Below, piece by piece: positions 2,222 to 32,000 of a stretch of DNA of 32,000 nucleotides. Origin of the DNA: Pyrolobus fumarii 1A (GTDB taxonomy: Archaea > Thermoproteota > Thermoprotei_A > Sulfolobales > Pyrodictiaceae). The translations under genes and the position numbers were made by a program. The DNA lies in the NCBI RefSeq assembly GCF_000223395.1, contig NC_015931.1:210001-242000 (forward strand), in the 5' to 3' direction. The notes beneath the pieces are model-generated. The model did not search any database and was not told where the DNA came from. It saw only the letters and a list, made by a program, of their open reading frames with translations. Each line of letters opens with the position of its first letter. Within the stretch, counting starts at the first letter, position 1.

Positions 2222-2297
2222 AGCCGGGTCGTCTAGCGGCCAAGGATGCGGGGCTTTGGCCCCCGTGACCGGGGTTCGAATCCCCGCCCGGCTACCA
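2222..2297 (+). tRNA. tRNA-Gln-TTG: tRNA-Gln, anticodon UUG, with encoded CCA (mature body 2222-2294)
   Basis: Hand-folded cloverleaf. Acceptor AGCCGGG/CCCGGCU, anticodon stem CGGGG/CCCCG with loop CUUUGGC, T arm CGGGG-UUCGAAU-CCCCG, discriminator A, then CCA. Confidence 0.9.
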
Positions 2298-2428: not shown

Positions 2429-2506
<78 letters not shown>

Positions 2507-27352: not shown

Positions 27353-28357
27353 GTGCTAACCGTGTCTAAGGCTATATCGGAGCATGACAACTTGGCTATG
27401 GTAAAGCCTCTAGTCTCTGAGGAAGAGATATACCTGGATATAGAGGCGATGATCAAGCTTATGGCGATAACAGTACGTGGTCTAGAGCTTGCAGTTGGAC
27501 AGAGAAGCGCAATGGCGCTAGGAACAATCATGGGCTCGCAACTTTACAAAAGCATGTCGCCTAGTATAAAGGGTAAGAACTTGAAGGAGGCTCTCGAGGC
27601 CGTAAACACACGTAGTTTCCGTATAGATGTTTACAAGATGCGAGGAAAAGTGGTCCATGAAGACCCGCAAACGGGGCGCAAGGTGTTCTATTACGTTGGA
27701 CGGGAGTGTCCGATACGACAAATACTATACCACGAGGATATTCCCGCCGGAGGTACACTTTGTCGCATAATGTGTAGTTTCGTGGAACAGTTGTTAGCGG
27801 ATGTACTAGGTGGCAAGTATTCTGTGAAACTGTTGCGTTACGGGCCTAATGCGTGCTTCCTGCGTGTAGAGATAGTTAACGGTCCGCAGCCTCCAGACGA
27901 TGTCGCCGTATACTCGAAGAAACCTAGTCTAGAAGAGTATGTCATGTTGCTACGTGAGGACCTTAGGTCTATACTTGTGGCTTTCGATGCAACTGTAGAT
28001 AGAGTATTGGGCGGCAATCCGACTATGAGTTACATGGCAGGTAAGAGGTATGGACTCCTAGATGGCGACAACCTGCTAAGTACTATTGGCAGAACGATCA
28101 GCGTCGACGAAGCCATAACCGTGCTAAACGTGGCTTACAAAGGTTTGCTAGAGCTGAGCAAGGAGGGTGACGTAATTAGCCTAGAAAGGAGTGTGTTCCA
28201 CGATCTAGTCGAGAAGCTGCAGCTTGGACGTGCAGTCTTCATCTATCGTACTCTGCAAGGCTACCTAGCTGGGCTTTTAGAGAGGCTAACTGGTCACCGT
28301 GTTGACCTACGCGGTTTAGATGAGAAAGCTACGCAACTAAAGATTCTCATGAGGTGA
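27353..28357 (+). CDS. Tandem V4R-like domain protein, first gene of the hydrogenase operon
   Basis: 334-aa ORF. The first half contains GRECPIRQ...GGTLCRIMCSFVEQLLADVLGGKYSVKLLRYGPNACFLRVEIV, which is the same block architecture as the V4R protein at 15189. The second half is a Cys-less repeat ending IYRTLQGYLAGLLERLTGHRVDL. Its stop overlaps the small-subunit start (GTGA). An alternative ATG start lies at 27398. Confidence 0.45.
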   Translation: MLTVSKAISEHDNLAMVKPLVSEEEIYLDIEAMIKLMAITVRGLELAVGQRSAMALGTIMGSQLYKSMSPSIKGKNLKEALEAVNTRSFRIDVYKMRGKVVHEDPQTGRKVFYYVGRECPIRQILYHEDIPAGGTLCRIMCSFVEQLLADVLGGKYSVKLLRYGPNACFLRVEIVNGPQPPDDVAVYSKKPSLEEYVMLLREDLRSILVAFDATVDRVLGGNPTMSYMAGKRYGLLDGDNLLSTIGRTISVDEAITVLNVAYKGLLELSKEGDVISLERSVFHDLVEKLQLGRAVFIYRTLQGYLAGLLERLTGHRVDLRGLDEKATQLKILMR

Positions 28358-29316
28358 AGACCGTGAGTGGCGGGAAGCTCACACTCGCTGTTGTGCCTCT
28401 GACAGGGTGTGGGGGCTGTGAGGTACAAGTGTTGAGGACGTTTGAGAAGTATCCAGAGCTATACGAAAAGTATGATGTGGTGTATTGGCCGCTCGTTGTT
28501 GAAGCCGAGGAGATGCCAGAGAGCGTCGACGTAGTACTAGTGGAAGGTAGTGTTAGGACCAAGAAAGATGTTGACGTGTTAAGAAAGGCGCGTAAAGCTG
28601 CAAGATACTTGATAACCCTAGGCTCTTGTGCAGGCTTCGGCGGTATAAACGGACAGGCTGACTACTTCCCGATAGAAGAGAACATGAAAAGTATCTATGG
28701 TAAAGAGAAGCTAGAAAATAGCGTTGACATGCTAGAAAGACTGTATGCACCCTCGGATGTAGTCCCAGTCGACTATGTAGTACCGAGGTGTCCGCCAACA
28801 CCAGAAGTGTTATACAAAGTGCTCACAGCGGTGTATGAAGGCAAAAGGCCGCCAGCAACCTTGTACAGCGTCTGTACGCAGTGTCCAAGAGAAATGCGCG
28901 AGATAAAGCAAGAGATTACCGAAGAGTTCTTCAAGAAGGGCTTGCCAGGCCCCGATGTTGACCCGAAGACCTGTCTTCTAAGCCAAGGGTACCTATGCAT
29001 GGGGTCAGTAACCATCGTTGGTTGTGGTGCGCCATGTACTAGGGCTGGTATCCCGTGTTTCGGGTGTGGAGGCCCGACAGCCGAAATCGCCGTCCGTAGA
29101 GACCAGGACATACCAGTTGCACTTGCAAGGATAATAGCAACGCTTGCGGGAATGGATCCCATCGAGGGTGGAGAGAAGGTACTCAAGATACTAGAGAAAG
29201 TATACGGCATGAGGAGATTCTATACGTTCACGCTTGAATCCGAAGTTTTCAGAAGAAAGCCACGTGGTTTTGCTATTAGACTCTTGGCAGAGAATAGGAG
29301 GGCGCAGCAAGGGTGA
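28354..29316 (+). CDS. [NiFe]-hydrogenase small subunit, cytoplasmic group-3 type (MvhG/FrhG-like)
   Basis: 320-aa ORF with no Tat signal. Contains LTGCGGCE, LGSCAGFGG, PRCPP and a C-terminal Cys cluster (CTQCP...CLLSQGYLCMG...GCGAPCTRAGIPCFGCGGP). Confidence 0.85.
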   Translation: MKTVSGGKLTLAVVPLTGCGGCEVQVLRTFEKYPELYEKYDVVYWPLVVEAEEMPESVDVVLVEGSVRTKKDVDVLRKARKAARYLITLGSCAGFGGINGQADYFPIEENMKSIYGKEKLENSVDMLERLYAPSDVVPVDYVVPRCPPTPEVLYKVLTAVYEGKRPPATLYSVCTQCPREMREIKQEITEEFFKKGLPGPDVDPKTCLLSQGYLCMGSVTIVGCGAPCTRAGIPCFGCGGPTAEIAVRRDQDIPVALARIIATLAGMDPIEGGEKVLKILEKVYGMRRFYTFTLESEVFRRKPRGFAIRLLAENRRAQQG

Positions 29317-30740
29317 GGCGCATGGCGGGCAAAGAGATTAGGCTAGATATGACACTCATAGAGGGTCACGCCAACGTCCTGATACGTGTAGGTGACGATG
29401 GAAAAGTGGCAGAGAGGGTACTCTACCAGGGTGTCGACACTAGATTCTTCGAGAGACTCTGGGCGGGTATGAACATAGACGAGATGCCAAGAGTAACGCC
29501 AATGATATGCGGAGTTTGCAGTGCGACACACCATGTGTGTAGCGCGCTAGCAGTTGACAAAGTTAGGGGTGTTGAGCCGCCCGAGACTGCGCAAAACATC
29601 AGGGCAATGATAAACCTAGGCATACATCTTAACAACCAGGCGTTGCACCTCGTGGTTATGGGTCTACCGGACTTCCTCCCGGCGAGTGAGAAGAGGCGCA
29701 GCGTGTTCAGGCTAATGGCGTCAAGGCCTGCTCTGGCTAAGACAGGATTGAAGATAATGGAGCTTGGACATACGGTAGTGGCGGTATTCGGCGGTAGAGA
29801 GGTGCATCCGATAAACGCTGTATCTGGTGGTGTTGCTAGGGCTCCCAGCGAGCATGAAGTTAAGGAGCTCCGAGAAAAGTTTGAGAAGCTGAAGAGTGAC
29901 CTAGAGACGTTCAAGAAGGAGGCTTTGAACCTCCTTGCCGAGAGCAAAGAGAAAATATCGAATTACGAGAGCGGGACAGAATACATGTTAGCTGTTGTTG
30001 ATAGCAAGACTGGCGGTTTCACGCCGCTCGAGGGTGTGGCAAAGGTTATCGATAGTAAAGGTAATGTGGTTGTCGAGTTCCGTCCCGAGGAGTACACCAA
30101 GGTTATCGACGAGAAGGTGTTCGACTACACGTATGTCAAGATGCCGGTGTTGAGGAGCAAGGGTTACCCCCAGGGTGGTATGCGTACCGGCCCTCTGGCA
30201 AGAGTAAACATCGTCAAGAGCTATGGTGTTGAAGAGGCTGATGAACTACGTGACAAGCTGTTCGAGGAATGGGGCAGACCAGCGACGCACCCACTACTGT
30301 ACCACTATGCGCGCGTCGTAGAGACAATAGCTGTCTACGAGTTGATACAACGTGCTCTAGATGAGTGGGACTTCTGGAGCACGCCGTTACGGAATTACAC
30401 TGACAGTGTGCGCGGAGAGGGTGTTGCGATGATAGAAGCGCCTAGAGGCACGTTGATACATCATTATAGAGCGAGAGAAGATGGTGCAACTGAGTACGTG
30501 AACGTCATTACGCCAACGACATTTAACGCTGTTGCAATGGAGAACGATTTGACCAAGTTCTTCCAGGGCAAAAATGTTGCCAAGATGAGTGATCGCGAGA
30601 TATATGCACATGCTGTGGCGATAGTGAGGCCTTACGACCCGTGTATGGCTTGTGCAACGCACACAGTAGCTGAGCACCAGCTTGGCAAGATCTTAATAGT
30701 TGATAAAAACTTGAATGTAGTGAGGGAGGTGAAACCGTGA
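29313..30740 (+). CDS. [NiFe]-hydrogenase large subunit, group-3 type (MvhA-like)
   Basis: 475-aa ORF. N-terminal Ni-Fe ligands RVTPMICGVCSATHH. C-terminal DPCMACATH, followed by a 25-aa extension that is the endopeptidase substrate. The start overlaps the small-subunit stop. Confidence 0.9.
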   Translation: MRRMAGKEIRLDMTLIEGHANVLIRVGDDGKVAERVLYQGVDTRFFERLWAGMNIDEMPRVTPMICGVCSATHHVCSALAVDKVRGVEPPETAQNIRAMINLGIHLNNQALHLVVMGLPDFLPASEKRRSVFRLMASRPALAKTGLKIMELGHTVVAVFGGREVHPINAVSGGVARAPSEHEVKELREKFEKLKSDLETFKKEALNLLAESKEKISNYESGTEYMLAVVDSKTGGFTPLEGVAKVIDSKGNVVVEFRPEEYTKVIDEKVFDYTYVKMPVLRSKGYPQGGMRTGPLARVNIVKSYGVEEADELRDKLFEEWGRPATHPLLYHYARVVETIAVYELIQRALDEWDFWSTPLRNYTDSVRGEGVAMIEAPRGTLIHHYRAREDGATEYVNVITPTTFNAVAMENDLTKFFQGKNVAKMSDREIYAHAVAIVRPYDPCMACATHTVAEHQLGKILIVDKNLNVVREVKP

Positions 30741-31057
30741 TGGCTGAGGATATACTTGCACATGTAGAGAAAGTGCAAGAAGAAGTAGAAGTGGCAACCA
30801 AACCTAAAGCTATAATCATCGACAAGAACGTATGCATGAAGTGTTACAACTGTGTCAGATCGTGCACCGTATTCAACAGCGTCTATGAAATCGGCGAAGA
30901 CGGTTATCCCTACGCAGCCCGCCTCGACGACTGTATAATGTGCCTAATGTGCCACTTTGTCTGTCCAACTCGTGCGATAACGCACGTGGGCATCCGAACA
31001 GTGACCATACTAGTGCTTGACAAGGATATCGCGCAAAAGATGACAAAGATAATGTAA
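30737..31057 (+). CDS. 2x[4Fe-4S] ferredoxin-domain protein
   Basis: 106-aa ORF with CMKCYNCVRSC and CIMCLMCHFVCP. ATG 30740 overlaps the large-subunit TGA by 1 nt. Confidence 0.8.
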   Translation: MMAEDILAHVEKVQEEVEVATKPKAIIIDKNVCMKCYNCVRSCTVFNSVYEIGEDGYPYAARLDDCIMCLMCHFVCPTRAITHVGIRTVTILVLDKDIAQKMTKIM

Positions 31058-31080
31058 ATACAAGACAATTTTATAGATCA

Positions 31081-31114
31081 GCGCGAGGCCCTCCGCGCGC
31101 CCGCCCCTCCTTTT
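31081..31114 (+). terminator. GC hairpin followed by a T tract after the hydrogenase operon
   Basis: GCGCG-AGGCCCTC-CGCGC, then CCGCCCCTCCTTTT. It is preceded by ATTTTAT at 31068-31074. Confidence 0.4.
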
Positions 31115-31175
31115 GTAAACGTGTACTCGCTGTGTTCGCGTATCGTCTATCATAGCTATGTAGTTGAGATAGCTG

Positions 31176-31204
31176 GAGGGTCTGTGCCCTCAATGTAACT
31201 TTTT
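31176..31204 (+). terminator. Second hairpin plus T5 tract
   Basis: GAGGG-TCTGTG-CCCTC, followed 8 nt later by TTTTT (31200-31204). Confidence 0.3.
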
Positions 31205-31298
31205 CATTGCGACGGATGTTCTCGCTTGAGGAGTTGATTATAGACACGGCATGAGTTTACACGAGCATCTTGAATATTGTAAGATTATGTTTTAGTGT

Positions 31299-31535
31299 GG
31301 ATGAGGGTCGGCGATGCGGGGCTTCACGCATCCCCCTTGCGGGGCTTGTTAGCCGGGTGTTCCGGGCTTCCTCCTCATCCCGCGGGAAGTGGTAGAAACC
31401 CCCGGCGGTTTCTCGGTAGCGCCGGCCCACCGGCATGCCCGGGGGGCTTTTGCCCCCCGGTGGACCGGGCAACCCCACGGTTCGTCCTCATTGAACGCCG
31501 CCGGGGGTCCATGGTGACGGGTGTGTCCCGGTCTT
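31299..31535. ncRNA. Unclassified GC-rich, hairpin-dense element; candidate structured RNA
   Basis: Hand count gives 160 G+C in the 230 nt of 31301-31530 (~70%), against ~38% in the preceding 98 nt. It contains a multi-helix structure including an 8-bp closing stem around three hairpins, a 9-bp GC hairpin, and an 11-bp long-range complement (details in findings). AATATT lies about 25 nt upstream and CTTTATT/GTTTGTCTT lie just downstream, which favours the plus strand. A GCAA (GNRA) loop appears only on the minus strand. No family could be recognised. Confidence 0.5.
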
Positions 31536-31765
31536 TATTGTATAAGCGTTTGTCTTCAGCTCGTGTTGTGTGGCTCGTCTTTTCGTCGGGCAGGGCGTGG
31601 TATCGTGGCGGGATACGTGGTTGGGCTGGCTCTAGTGGGCGGCTTGATGTTGTTGCTAGGGTGATGCTGGCGGCGTGTTACCCAGGGTGTGATGCGCAAG
31701 GAGGGTGCCTGTTTGCCGCCTCGCTGCAAGGCCCCGCATTGTTCGTGCACGAGGCTGGTGGCAGG

Positions 31766-32000
31766 ATGTGTAGAGAGTATGAGGCCGGCGAGGAGATACT
31801 ACGTGGCTTGCAGGGAGTGTCGCGTTTAAGTATGGTATACCCGGGCTTATCAGGTGTAGAGTTGTTGAGTTTGGCTAAGAGTCTAGGCTACCGGGTTCTT
31901 CTCCTAAGTGAGAGGTGTCCTGTGTCCTGGAGAGTATCGCTCAATAGGCGTGTTGTCGTGCTCGGAGCAGATATTGACCCGCCGTCTGCAGTCCATAGTC
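31766..32000 (+). CDS. Hypothetical protein, 5' part only (runs off the window); start uncertain
   Basis: The frame is open to the window end. The protein-like stretch is MCREYEAGEEILRGLQGVSRLSMVYPGLSGVELLSLAKSLGYRVLLLSERCPVSWRVSLNRRVVVLGADIDPP. Alternative starts are ATG 31832 and TTG 31862. A TATA-like GTTTAAGTA lies at 31823-31831. No family was recognised. Confidence 0.35.
   Translation, partial: MCREYEAGEEILRGLQGVSRLSMVYPGLSGVELLSLAKSLGYRVLLLSERCPVSWRVSLNRRVVVLGADIDPPSAVHS

What the first reader, a model, noticed from the sequence alone, without database searches (positions are those of the whole stretch)
31299..31535. Unassigned ~240-nt GC-rich structured element downstream of the hydrogenase operon
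In hyperthermophile genomes, a sharp GC spike inside an AT-rich spacer is the classic signature of a structured RNA. Helices found by hand:
- 31299-31306 pairs with 31373-31380 (8 Watson-Crick bp). This stem closes a four-way junction.
- The junction holds three hairpins: 31313-31318/31327-31332; 31333-31336/31341-31344 (loop UUGC, which is GCAA on the other strand); and 31351-31356/31362-31368 (one bulge).
- Further hairpins: 31421-31425/31430-31434; 31439-31447/31452-31460 (9 bp, U4 loop); and 31464-31469/31475-31481 (one bulge).
- 31398-31408 is perfectly complementary to 31498-31508 (11 bp). This pairing competes with a local hairpin, 31394-31400/31407-31413, so there are either two alternative folds or a pseudoknot.
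- CCUCAU occurs twice (31373-31378 and 31486-31491), giving the 5' strand two possible partners.

I could not match the element to any known family:
- SRP RNA: no GGAA...AGCA helix-8 motif, and the element is too short.
- Type A RNase P RNA: no GAGGAAAGUCC, and no P1/P2 partners.
- tRNA: none of the expected features.
- C/D or H/ACA RNAs: none of the expected features.
Basis: seen in the sequence. Interest (0 to 1): 0.7.

Follow-up and report, generated by a model that had tools for sequence, protein, structure and literature searches.

The report
Structured RNA leader of trmY-like gene
The GC-rich element is a real, conserved, previously uncatalogued structured RNA made of two related four-way-junction modules; it belongs not to the hydrogenase operon but to the start of the downstream tRNA-methyltransferase-like gene, where it most likely controls that gene.

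Summary

The source is Pyrolobus fumarii. Seven related lineages (MAGs and metagenome contigs) carry the same element.

It has two modules, each a closing helix around three hairpins:
- M1, 31299-31380
- M2, 31398-31508

In M2 the closing helix PL and the middle hairpin He covary strongly. 14 pairs changed on both sides and 99% of cells are paired, against 76% in shuffles. The junction strands and two hairpins are 92-100% identical, while the neighbouring coding sequence is 57-66% identical.

An M2 covariance model also hits M1 weakly, so the modules are probably paralogues. M1 is optional; M2 is always present.

The upstream gene differs among relatives (five contexts). M2 always ends 2-30 nt before the SD-like box and start codon of a DUF358 SPOUT protein, whose predicted fold is closest to TrmY, the tRNA pseudouridine-54 N1-methyltransferase.

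Best reading: a cis-acting 5' leader of the trmY-like mRNA. It is probably an autoregulatory protein-binding site or a new riboswitch-like aptamer pair.

The mechanism is inferred, not shown. The strand and the transcript ends need RNA data.

The parts
31271..31288 (+). AT-rich boxes (GAATATTG, TAAGATTAT) about 20-28 nt upstream of 31299. Candidate archaeal TATA/BRE for a transcript that starts at the first module.
   Evidence: Sequence reading only; this is an inference. It is the only AT-rich promoter-like stretch between the ferredoxin stop (31057) and the DUF358 start.
31299..31380 (+). Module M1, a four-way junction:
- closing helix P1, 31299-31306/31373-31380 (core GGGU/ACCC in relatives)
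- hairpin Ha, 31313-31332
- variable hairpin Hb, 31333-31344
- hairpin Hc with a bulged G, 31351-31368
- single-stranded tail TTCCTCCTCA, 31368-31377
   Evidence: The helices were read from the sequence and appear in the MFE fold. M1 is present in 6 of 8 lineages at 89-100% identity in its conserved blocks. Hb varies in length (4-8 bp) and switches C-G to G-C at two pairs. The M2 covariance model hits M1 at 13-22 bits with helix-for-helix correspondence.
31381..31397 (+). Variable linker between the modules.
   Evidence: 31-36 nt and unrelated in sequence in five lineages; 89 nt in L003.
31398..31508 (+). Module M2, a four-way junction:
- closing helix PL, 31398-31408/31498-31508
- junction strand J1 CTCGGTAGCG, 31412-31421
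- hairpin Hd, 31421-31434 (loop CCCA)
- variable hairpin He, 31439-31460
- hairpin Hf CCGGGCAACCCCACGG with a bulged A, 31465-31480
- tail TTCGTCCTCA, 31481-31490
   Evidence: Present in all 8 lineages. The covariance model scores 59-66 bits. Covariation: PL has 8 of 9 pairs and He 6 of 7 pairs with changes on both sides; 99% of cells are paired against 76% in shuffles; 0 of 500 shuffles reach the observed score. Hd and Hf are invariant.
31513..31517 (+). SD-like box GGTGA, 5 nt before GTG 31523.
   Evidence: GGUG-type boxes occur at the same place in L003, L004, L006, L007 and L011. Inference.
31514..32000 (+). 5' part of the DUF358/TrmY-like SPOUT methyltransferase gene. It runs off the window and ends at window-equivalent 32122 in L001. 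The start is GTG 31514 (the database protein) or GTG 31523.
   Evidence: P0001, annotated 'protein of unknown function DUF358 [Pyrolobus fumarii 1A]', is 99% identical. The N-terminal peptide is conserved with L006. The AF2 model has pLDDT 83. The best Foldseek hits are the TrmY structures 3AI9, 3AIA, 2QMM and 2QWV.

Best explanation
The element is a conserved structured RNA on the + strand. It consists of two paralogous four-way-junction modules, M1 (optional) and M2 (universal), and forms the 5' leader of the mRNA for a TrmY-like SPOUT methyltransferase. This is the pseudouridine-N1 methyltransferase fold that acts on the tRNA T-loop.

M2's closing helix ends a few nucleotides before the Shine-Dalgarno-like box and start codon. 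Formation or stabilisation of the module could therefore set how accessible the initiation region is.

The most likely effector is the enzyme itself. SPOUT enzymes are dimers. Each module presents a G-ended helix followed directly by single-stranded UUC (GG-UUC in M2, GGGC-UUC in M1). That is the G53-U54-U55-C56 context of the enzyme's natural target. Surplus enzyme would bind its own leader as a pseudo-substrate and repress translation.

Shown: the RNA structure, its conservation, its linkage to the gene, and the protein fold.
Inferred: co-transcription, the strand, protein binding, and the direction of regulation.
For: - Structure is real. PL and He covary in 8 lineages, and PL has six different sequences that all pair.
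- Strong purifying selection on the RNA. Conserved blocks are 92-100% identical, against 57-66% for the adjacent CDS.
- Not coding. He length varies 25-30 nt, not in multiples of 3. Hf is read in different frames in different genomes (DRATPRF and PGNPTV). In-frame stops occur in L004, L006 and L011.
- Linkage to the downstream gene. The upstream gene is a hydrogenase ferredoxin (window, L003), ThiF (L004, L006), an unknown 310-aa protein (L007, L008), another ORF (L011), or a divergent radical-SAM gene (L009). M2 always directly precedes the DUF358 gene.
- Start codons lie 2-30 nt after PL and are preceded by GGUG/GGAGG-type boxes. The AT-rich 'TATA-like' box at 31535-46 is actually the codons S-L-L-Y-K, conserved in L006 as S-L-Y-R. 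No promoter therefore fits between M2 and the gene.
- The protein is TrmY-like. Foldseek gives TM 0.66-0.75 and E about 1e-9 to 3AI9, 3AIA, 2QMM and 2QWV, with Nep1 next. A profile search retrieves PF04013 proteins.
- Two related modules fit a dimeric binder.
Against: - There are no transcript data, so the strand and the 5'/3' ends are inferred.
- All compensatory changes are Watson-Crick to Watson-Crick, so the helices fit the - strand equally well. The - strand has the better MFE z-score (-3.9 against -1.9).
- Only the GUUC context resembles a T-arm. The rest fails tRNA models.
- No conserved alternative 'switch' structure was found. Pairing of the CCUCC-rich tail with the SD region is no better than in shuffles.
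- The distance from PL to the start codon varies (2-30 nt), so simple occlusion of the SD cannot hold in every species.
- In most relatives the element abuts an upstream co-directional gene with no visible promoter. It could equally be a processed stable RNA.
- Only 8 lineages are known, all from one clade.
Confidence: 0.42

Rival explanations
1. A new riboswitch class. Each module is a ligand-binding aptamer, for example for SAM or SAH (the cofactor and product of the downstream methyltransferase) or another small molecule. M2 is the essential aptamer and M1 a tandem duplicate, as in tandem and singlet glycine riboswitches.
For: The architecture is typical of an aptamer. It is a four-way junction with invariant junction strands, loops and bulges. 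The closing helix and one peripheral hairpin vary freely in sequence and length. It sits directly upstream of the SD and start codon. Both tandem and singlet arrangements occur.
Against: - No match to SAM-I or any other riboswitch model in Rfam.
- The stems Hd and Hf are invariant at the sequence level, which is unusual for aptamer stems.
- tRNA-modification enzymes are not typical riboswitch targets.
- No conserved terminator or anti-SD alternative structure was found.
- Only one gene family is associated with the element, and no further copy occurs in 133 kb of related DNA.
Confidence: 0.2
2. A stable, trans-acting or enzyme-associated non-coding RNA. It could be one RNA of about 210-240 nt, or two RNAs of about 80 and 110 nt. 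It would be co-transcribed with neighbouring genes and excised, for example as a dedicated substrate, partner or scaffold of the TrmY-like enzyme. It would not be a regulatory leader.
For: - Sequence conservation is very high, as for housekeeping RNAs.
- The modules are separable (L003 has an 89-nt linker instead of 31-36 nt, L011 and L009 have M2 only).
- In the relatives the element starts 0-2 nt after the upstream stop codon. This resembles archaeal sRNA genes that lack their own promoters.
- In P. fumarii there are promoter-like boxes about 25 nt before 31299, and a U-rich stretch (UCUUUAUU, 31533-31540) follows.
Against: - The U-rich stretch lies inside conserved codons of the DUF358 N-terminus.
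- The distribution is narrow, restricted to the clade that has this DUF358 variant. More distant TrmY-like genes (L087, L012) lack the element.
- There is no similarity to any known stable RNA.
Confidence: 0.25
3. The functional RNA is on the - strand. It would be transcribed divergently from the DUF358 gene, and the helices seen are those of its complement.
For: - All helices are pure Watson-Crick, so they form equally well on the - strand.
- The - strand has the better z-score, -3.9.
- The Hb loop in the window reads GCAA (a GNRA tetraloop) on the - strand.
- One A.C mismatch in an extended P1 of L008 would be a G.U pair on the - strand (reading).
Against: - There is no room for a divergent promoter between M2 and the DUF358 start.
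- The GNRA loop is not conserved.
- In six lineages a - strand RNA would run antisense into the upstream coding gene with no terminator.
- The wobble pairs in the alternative pairings found by RNAalifold (U-G, G-U, and G-C changing to G-U) work only on the + strand.
Confidence: 0.08
4. N-terminal coding extension of the DUF358 protein. The frame from 31285 is open into the gene, and gene callers extended the ORF in L009 to 230 aa.
For: The frame is open through M2 in 5 of 8 lineages. L009 has no ATG, GTG or TTG between M2 and the conserved N-terminus.
Against: - In-frame stops occur in L004, L006 and L011.
- Indels in He are not multiples of three.
- The invariant nucleotides are read in different frames in different genomes.
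- The substitutions are compensatory base-pair changes, not synonymous changes.
Confidence: 0.02

Closest known systems
Autoregulatory mRNA leaders that mimic the protein's own RNA substrate (E. coli thrS operator with two tRNA-anticodon-arm mimics for dimeric ThrRS; archaeal L1 and L7Ae leaders). Recalled from established knowledge, not tested here.
   Same: A conserved structured leader directly upstream of the SD and start codon of a gene for an RNA-binding enzyme. Two similar modules could serve a dimeric protein. A short substrate-like motif (a helix ending in G, followed by UUC) is present.
   Different: No binding or regulation has been shown. The modules are four-way junctions of 80-110 nt, not simple hairpins. 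Resemblance to tRNA is limited to topology and a 4-nt motif.
Four-way-junction and tandem riboswitch aptamers (SAM-I; glycine tandem and singlet forms)
   Same: Invariant junctions and loops, with a covarying P1-like closing helix and one variable peripheral hairpin. Both tandem homologous modules and single-module variants occur. The position is just 5' of the translation start of a SAM-dependent enzyme gene.
   Different: No hit to any riboswitch model. The ligand is unknown. The stems Hd and Hf are invariant in sequence. No expression platform was identified. The host clade is hyperthermophilic crenarchaea (Pyrodictiaceae-like).
tRNA and tRNA-like structures
   Same: Cloverleaf topology: a closing helix plus three hairpins, the middle one resembling a long variable arm. 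AGCGCCGGCC and CCGGG...CCCGG resemble parts of the tRNA-Arg at window 2429-2503. GUUC follows a helix.
   Different: There is no 7-nt anticodon loop, no T-loop and no D-arm. 10-17 extra nucleotides precede the 3' strand. ARAGORN at default settings and the Rfam tRNA model find nothing; relaxed ARAGORN calls are mutually inconsistent.
GC-rich ncRNAs of AT-rich hyperthermophiles (Hgc/Ssc families)
   Same: Detected by the same signature: a GC spike in an AT-richer spacer of a hyperthermophile genome.
   Different: No sequence or structure similarity. In the GC-rich relatives there is no spike, yet the element is conserved.

Membership tests
Any Rfam 15 family (4227 models) | Covariance-model score at or above the family's gathering threshold | tested here: not met
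   In the whole window only two tRNAs elsewhere reach threshold. With permissive filters on 31000-32000, L007 2735-3000 and L009 2860-3200, the best scores are 12-17 bits against gathering scores of 40-71.
tRNA | Cloverleaf with a 7-bp acceptor stem, D-arm, 7-nt anticodon loop and a T-loop GTTCRANYC | tested here: not met
   ARAGORN at default settings finds none here. The Rfam tRNA model gives no hit at E<=10. Relaxed ARAGORN gives different anticodons in each species.
RNase P RNA (archaeal type A or type T) | CR-I GAGGAAAGUCC and CR-V forming a long-range P4; P1-P3 | tested here: not met
   No RNaseP_arch or RNaseP-T hit at E<=10. The - strand GGAAGCCCGG...CCCGGCUAA resembles P4 only as a local hairpin with a 5-nt loop.
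Archaeal SRP RNA | Alu domain, long helix 5, and helices 6 and 8 with conserved loops | tested here: not met
   No Archaea_SRP hit at E<=10. The element is about 210 nt and consists of two separable modules.
Box C/D or H/ACA sRNA | C/D boxes with a K-turn, or an ACA box with a pseudouridylation pocket | tested here: not met
   Only chance-level hits: sR45 15 bits (gathering 40), Pab19 14 bits (gathering 55), PyrR204 17 bits (gathering 71).
Riboswitch (generic) | Conserved aptamer in the 5' leader of the regulated gene | tested here: met
   M2 directly precedes the SD-like box and start codon of the same gene family in 8 lineages.
Riboswitch (generic) | Specific ligand binding | not testable with these tools
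   Needs in-line probing, ITC or similar.
Riboswitch (generic) | Expression platform with mutually exclusive structures | tested here: inconclusive
   Small hairpins and U-rich stretches follow PL in several species, but nothing is conserved. Tail-SD pairing is not above shuffles.
Substrate-mimic autoregulatory leader | Lies in the leader of the mRNA of an RNA-binding protein | tested here: met
   The position relative to the start codon. The protein has a TrmY-like SPOUT fold.
Substrate-mimic autoregulatory leader | Resembles the natural RNA target | tested here: inconclusive
   Only the helix-G-UUC context and the loose cloverleaf topology resemble the target. The element fails tRNA models.
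Substrate-mimic autoregulatory leader | The protein binds the leader and represses its own synthesis | not testable with these tools
   Needs EMSA or filter binding, plus reporter assays.
TrmY / DUF358 (PF04013) for the downstream protein | SPOUT alpha/beta-knot fold closest to the solved TrmY structures | tested here: met
   The AF2 model has pLDDT 83 and pTM 0.83. The top Foldseek hits are 3AI9, 3AIA, 2QMM and 2QWV (TM 0.66-0.75), followed by Nep1.
TrmY / DUF358 (PF04013) for the downstream protein | Pfam score above the gathering threshold | tested here: not met
   17.7 bits against a cut-off of 25.5, E=0.003, N-terminal motif only. A profile of the clade against PDB sequences gives nothing. 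It does retrieve PF04013 proteins at E 1e-18 to 1e-4. This is a divergent branch.

The most novel reading that the evidence does not exclude
M1 and M2 are tandem aptamers of a previously unknown riboswitch class in hyperthermophilic Crenarchaeota, or a protein-free sensor of tRNA or SAM status. They would switch translation of a tRNA T-loop methyltransferase at around 100 degrees C. This would be the first ligand-sensing RNA described for this lineage and a rare case of a riboswitch controlling an RNA-modification enzyme.
Probability: 0.18. Interest if true: 0.85.

Novelty: new variant of a known kind. Interest (0 to 1): 0.62.

Why it matters
Conserved cis-acting structured RNAs are almost unknown in Crenarchaeota. 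There, many mRNAs are leaderless and regulation is thought to be protein- and promoter-based.

This is a strongly constrained, covarying, bipartite leader in front of a tRNA pseudouridine-methyltransferase-like gene, in organisms that grow above 100 degrees C. It offers three things:
- a testable case of RNA-based control of tRNA modification, either autoregulation by substrate mimicry or a riboswitch
- a naturally hyperstable four-way-junction fold for structural work
- a correction to current annotation, because the element is partly annotated as protein in P. fumarii and in the L009 MAG

If it proves instead to be a stable partner RNA of the enzyme, that would be a new kind of SPOUT ribonucleoprotein.

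Tried and rejected
- **Known RNA families.** Rfam at gathering and permissive thresholds in three species gave nothing.
- **tRNA or tmRNA.** ARAGORN at default and relaxed settings gave none or inconsistent calls.
- **RNase P on the - strand.** The CR-I/CR-V-like GAGGAGGAAGCCCGG...CCCGGCUAAC is only a local hairpin and has no model hit.
- **C/D box on the - strand.** A 15-bit chance hit only.
- **SAM-I.** The shared CCGGGCAACC string has no model support.
- **Coding extension of DUF358.** Rejected on frame analysis.
- **A leaderless DUF358 promoter at TTTATTGTATAA (31535-46).** Rejected. These are conserved codons (S-L-L-Y-K, compared with S-L-Y-R in L006), and L006 has an in-frame TGA just upstream.
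- **The CCUCC tails as anti-SD sequesters of the downstream SD.** Duplex energies are not better than for shuffled tails. The motif is also not invariant: L009 has GUCUUC.
- **Repeat or mobile element.** There is no other copy in the window or in 133 kb of related DNA.
- **Metagenome scan with the 17-mer GGGCAACCCCACGGTTC.** Of 72 loci, only L034 is a true relative, and it is identical to L004.
- **Viral scans.** No M2 was found. One chance 19-mer match to M1 lies inside a phage ORF.
- **More distant TrmY-like genes.** L087 and L012 lack the element.

Full report
**Observation.**
The stretch 31299-31535 is 65-73% GC, between flanks of 38-50%. The + strand minimum-energy fold shows two four-way junctions. 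Thermodynamic significance is modest: z is -1.9 on the + strand and -3.9 on the - strand. The case therefore rests on comparison with relatives.

**Not a known RNA.**
- Rfam 15 finds only two tRNAs elsewhere in the window.
- With permissive filters the best hits over the element and two orthologues are chance-level, at 12-17 bits against gathering scores of 40-71.
- ARAGORN finds no tRNA or tmRNA here. Relaxed runs give mutually inconsistent calls.

**Source and relatives.**
- The neighbouring protein is 99% identical to 'protein of unknown function DUF358 [Pyrolobus fumarii 1A]'.
- A Logan contig, L001, is identical to the window and extends it.
- Homologous elements were found by following the hydrogenase gene (L003, a Pyrolobus sp. 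MAG) and the DUF358 gene (L004/L005, L006, L007, L008, L009/L010, L011).
- One metagenome contig, L034, repeats L004.
- More distant TrmY-like genes (L012 and L087, 32% identity) lack the element.

**Anatomy: two modules.**
- M1 (31299-31380):
  - closing helix P1
  - hairpin Ha (GAUGCG/CGCAUC, 8-nt loop)
  - variable hairpin Hb
  - hairpin Hc (bulged G)
  - tail UUCCUCCUCA
- M2 (31398-31508):
  - closing helix PL
  - junction strand CUCGGUAGCG
  - hairpin Hd (GCCGG/CCGGC, loop CCCA or CCCC)
  - variable hairpin He
  - hairpin Hf (CCGGGCAACCCCACGG, bulged A)
  - tail UUCNUCYNCA
- The modules are separable. The linker between them is 89 nt in L003, against 31-36 nt in the other five lineages that have both modules. 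L011 and L009 carry only M2.
- In L009, M2 is hidden inside a miscalled 230-aa ORF.

**Covariation.**
- PL has six different sequences that all pair: CCCCCGGCGG/CCGCCGGGGG, CCCCCAGGCGGUUU/AAACCGCCUGGGGG, CCUGGAGGCC/GGCCUCCUGG, GGGGCCCC-GCGG/CCGCGGGGCCCC, CCGGGGGCC/GGCCCCCGG and GCCGCCGGC/GCCGGCGGC.
- I built a curated equal-length alignment of the eight M2 cores. Bulges, spacers and hairpin apices were removed, so it is a hand-made structural alignment.
- On that alignment 99% of cells pair, against 76% in shuffles. 14 of 26 pairs have changes on both sides. The covariation score is 0.544 against 0.131, and 0 of 500 shuffles reach it. Sliding the 3' partners by 1-3 columns collapses pairing to 34-52%.
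- Hd and Hf never vary. All changes are Watson-Crick to Watson-Crick, so they do not identify the strand.
- The conserved blocks are 92-100% identical to P. fumarii, while the adjacent coding sequence is 57-66% identical.

**M1 and M2 are related.**
A covariance model of M2 scores 59-66 bits on every M2. It also hits the M1 regions at 13-22 bits (E 0.001-0.5). In the printed alignments of the near-full-length M1 hits in L006, L004 and L008, P1 aligns with PL, GUCGGCGAU with CUCGGUAGC, Ha with Hd, Hb with He, Hc with Hf, and tail with tail; the window hit covers only part of M1. Nothing else in 133 kb of related DNA matches. M1 is too invariant for its internal fold to be tested beyond Hb, which varies in length and has two C-G to G-C switches.

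**Not coding.**
- The frame from 31285 is open into the DUF358 gene.
- However, He length varies 25-30 nt, not in steps of three.
- The invariant Hf is read as DRATPRF in some genomes and PGNPTV in others.
- L004, L006 and L011 have in-frame stops.

**What it belongs to.**
- The gene upstream differs among lineages:
  - hydrogenase ferredoxin (window, L003)
  - ThiF/MoaE (L004, L006)
  - an unknown 310-aa protein (L007, L008)
  - another ORF (L011)
  - a divergently oriented radical-SAM gene (L009)
- The gene downstream is always the DUF358 protein. In L009 even the context beyond that gene differs.
- Aligning the N-termini shows 15-20 conserved residues before the invariant W. Compare MSRSLLYKRLSSARVVW in P. 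fumarii from GTG 31523 (the database protein, P0001, starts at GTG 31514) with MSLHSLYRVLQRARVLW in L006, which is preceded by an in-frame TGA.
- The AT-rich TTTATTGTATAA at 31535-46 is therefore coding sequence, not a promoter.
- Start codons lie 2-30 nt after PL and are preceded by GGUG/GGAGG-type boxes. With no room for a promoter, M2 must be transcribed with the gene as its leader.
- In P. fumarii the only promoter-like AT-rich boxes lie about 20-28 nt before 31299 (an inference).

**The protein.**
- Pfam gives only a sub-threshold PF04013 hit, and a profile search against PDB sequences finds nothing.
- The AlphaFold model (pLDDT 83, pTM 0.83) matches the solved TrmY/DUF358 structures best: 3AI9, 3AIA, 2QMM and 2QWV, with TM 0.66-0.75 and E about 1e-9. 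Nep1/Emg1 comes next.
- A clade profile retrieves PF04013 proteins, one of them named tRNA (pseudouridine54-N1)-methyltransferase.
- TrmY with Pus10 makes m1-pseudouridine-54 in crenarchaeal tRNA (PMC7337903).

**Mechanism (inferred).**
A structured leader that ends next to the initiation region of the gene for a dimeric RNA-binding enzyme suggests feedback control.
- I favour autoregulation by the enzyme (confidence 0.42). There are two related modules. Each shows a G-ended helix followed by unpaired UUC, which is the G53-U54-U55-C56 context of the T-loop. Whole hairpins are invariant, which fits sequence-specific protein recognition.
- A new riboswitch (0.20) fits the aptamer-like pattern of invariant junctions with a variable P1 and one variable peripheral stem, and the tandem and singlet forms. 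But no model matches, and no conserved switch structure was found.
- A processed stable RNA (0.25) is not excluded, and neither is a - strand RNA (0.08).
- Pairing of the CCUCC tails with the SD is no better than chance, and the motif is not invariant. That idea is dropped.

**Unexplained.**
- In all relatives with a co-directional upstream gene, its UAG stop lies 0-2 nt before the first module, although four different genes are involved.
- L009 has no canonical start codon between M2 and the conserved N-terminus.
- RNAalifold proposes alternative pairings: M1 GGGUCGGCG with M2 CGCCGGCCC, and GGCUACACG with CGYGUUAGCC. These contain wobble pairs that are possible only on the + strand, but they cannot be tested because the sequences are invariant.

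**Verdict.**
This is a real, new, narrowly distributed structured RNA family. The attribution to the hydrogenase operon, and the reading of it as a single unit, were not.

Noticed in passing
L003 6801-6804; L004 about 2710; L006 about 2772; L007 about 2752; L008 about 2747; L011 181-185: Four different co-directional upstream genes all end with UAG 0-2 nt before the first nucleotide of the element (GGGU of M1, or PL of M2 in L011). Only P. fumarii has a spacer (240 nt, AT-rich, window 31058-31298). This could reflect ribosome-dependent unfolding, a processing signal, or genome compaction.
   Followed up: partly
L009 3001-3195 (identical in L010): The gene call of 230 aa runs through M2. There is no ATG, GTG or TTG between M2 and the conserved N-terminus of the TrmY-like protein, so the true start is unclear. 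The P. fumarii protein (P0001, 202 aa) starts at GTG 31514, only 6 nt after the closing helix of M2.
   Followed up: partly
L021, L035, L057 (1640-1720), L063, L070, L076, L083: AT-rich metagenome contigs (GC 0.39-0.48) share the string TTAATATAAT-GGGCAACCCCACGGTTCCTGCCATCCTCCGCCTCGC, which is 19 nt identical to the Hf region of M2. The string is conserved among them and follows a TATA-like box. There is no Rfam hit and no M2 architecture. It may be a chance match or an unrelated small RNA or gene end.
   Followed up: partly
window 27353-31057: A four-gene [NiFe]-hydrogenase cluster with overlapping stop and start codons. It comprises a 334-aa ORF with no Pfam hit (27353-28357), an Oxidored_q6 small subunit (28354-29316), a NiFeSe large subunit (29313-30740) and a 2x[4Fe-4S] ferredoxin (30737-31057). 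It is followed by a weak GC hairpin and a CCTTTTGT run at about 31081-31116 that could end the operon.
   Followed up: partly
window 2222-2297 and 2429-2506: tRNA-Gln(UUG) and tRNA-Arg(CCG) genes lie 130 nt apart. The tRNA-Arg shares AGCGCCGGCC and the CCGGG/CCCGG T-stem with M2, which prompted the tRNA-mimic idea. That idea was not supported statistically.
   Followed up: yes
window 31394-31413: The local hairpin AGAAACC/GGTTTCT, which competes with the long-range helix, exists only in P. fumarii. In L004 and L006 the same UUU instead extends the long-range helix to 14 bp.
   Followed up: yes
L088 3649-3667: A 19-nt exact match to the 5' end of M1 lies inside an ORF of a bacteriophage-like IMG/VR contig. 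There is no surrounding similarity, so it is a chance match.
   Followed up: yes
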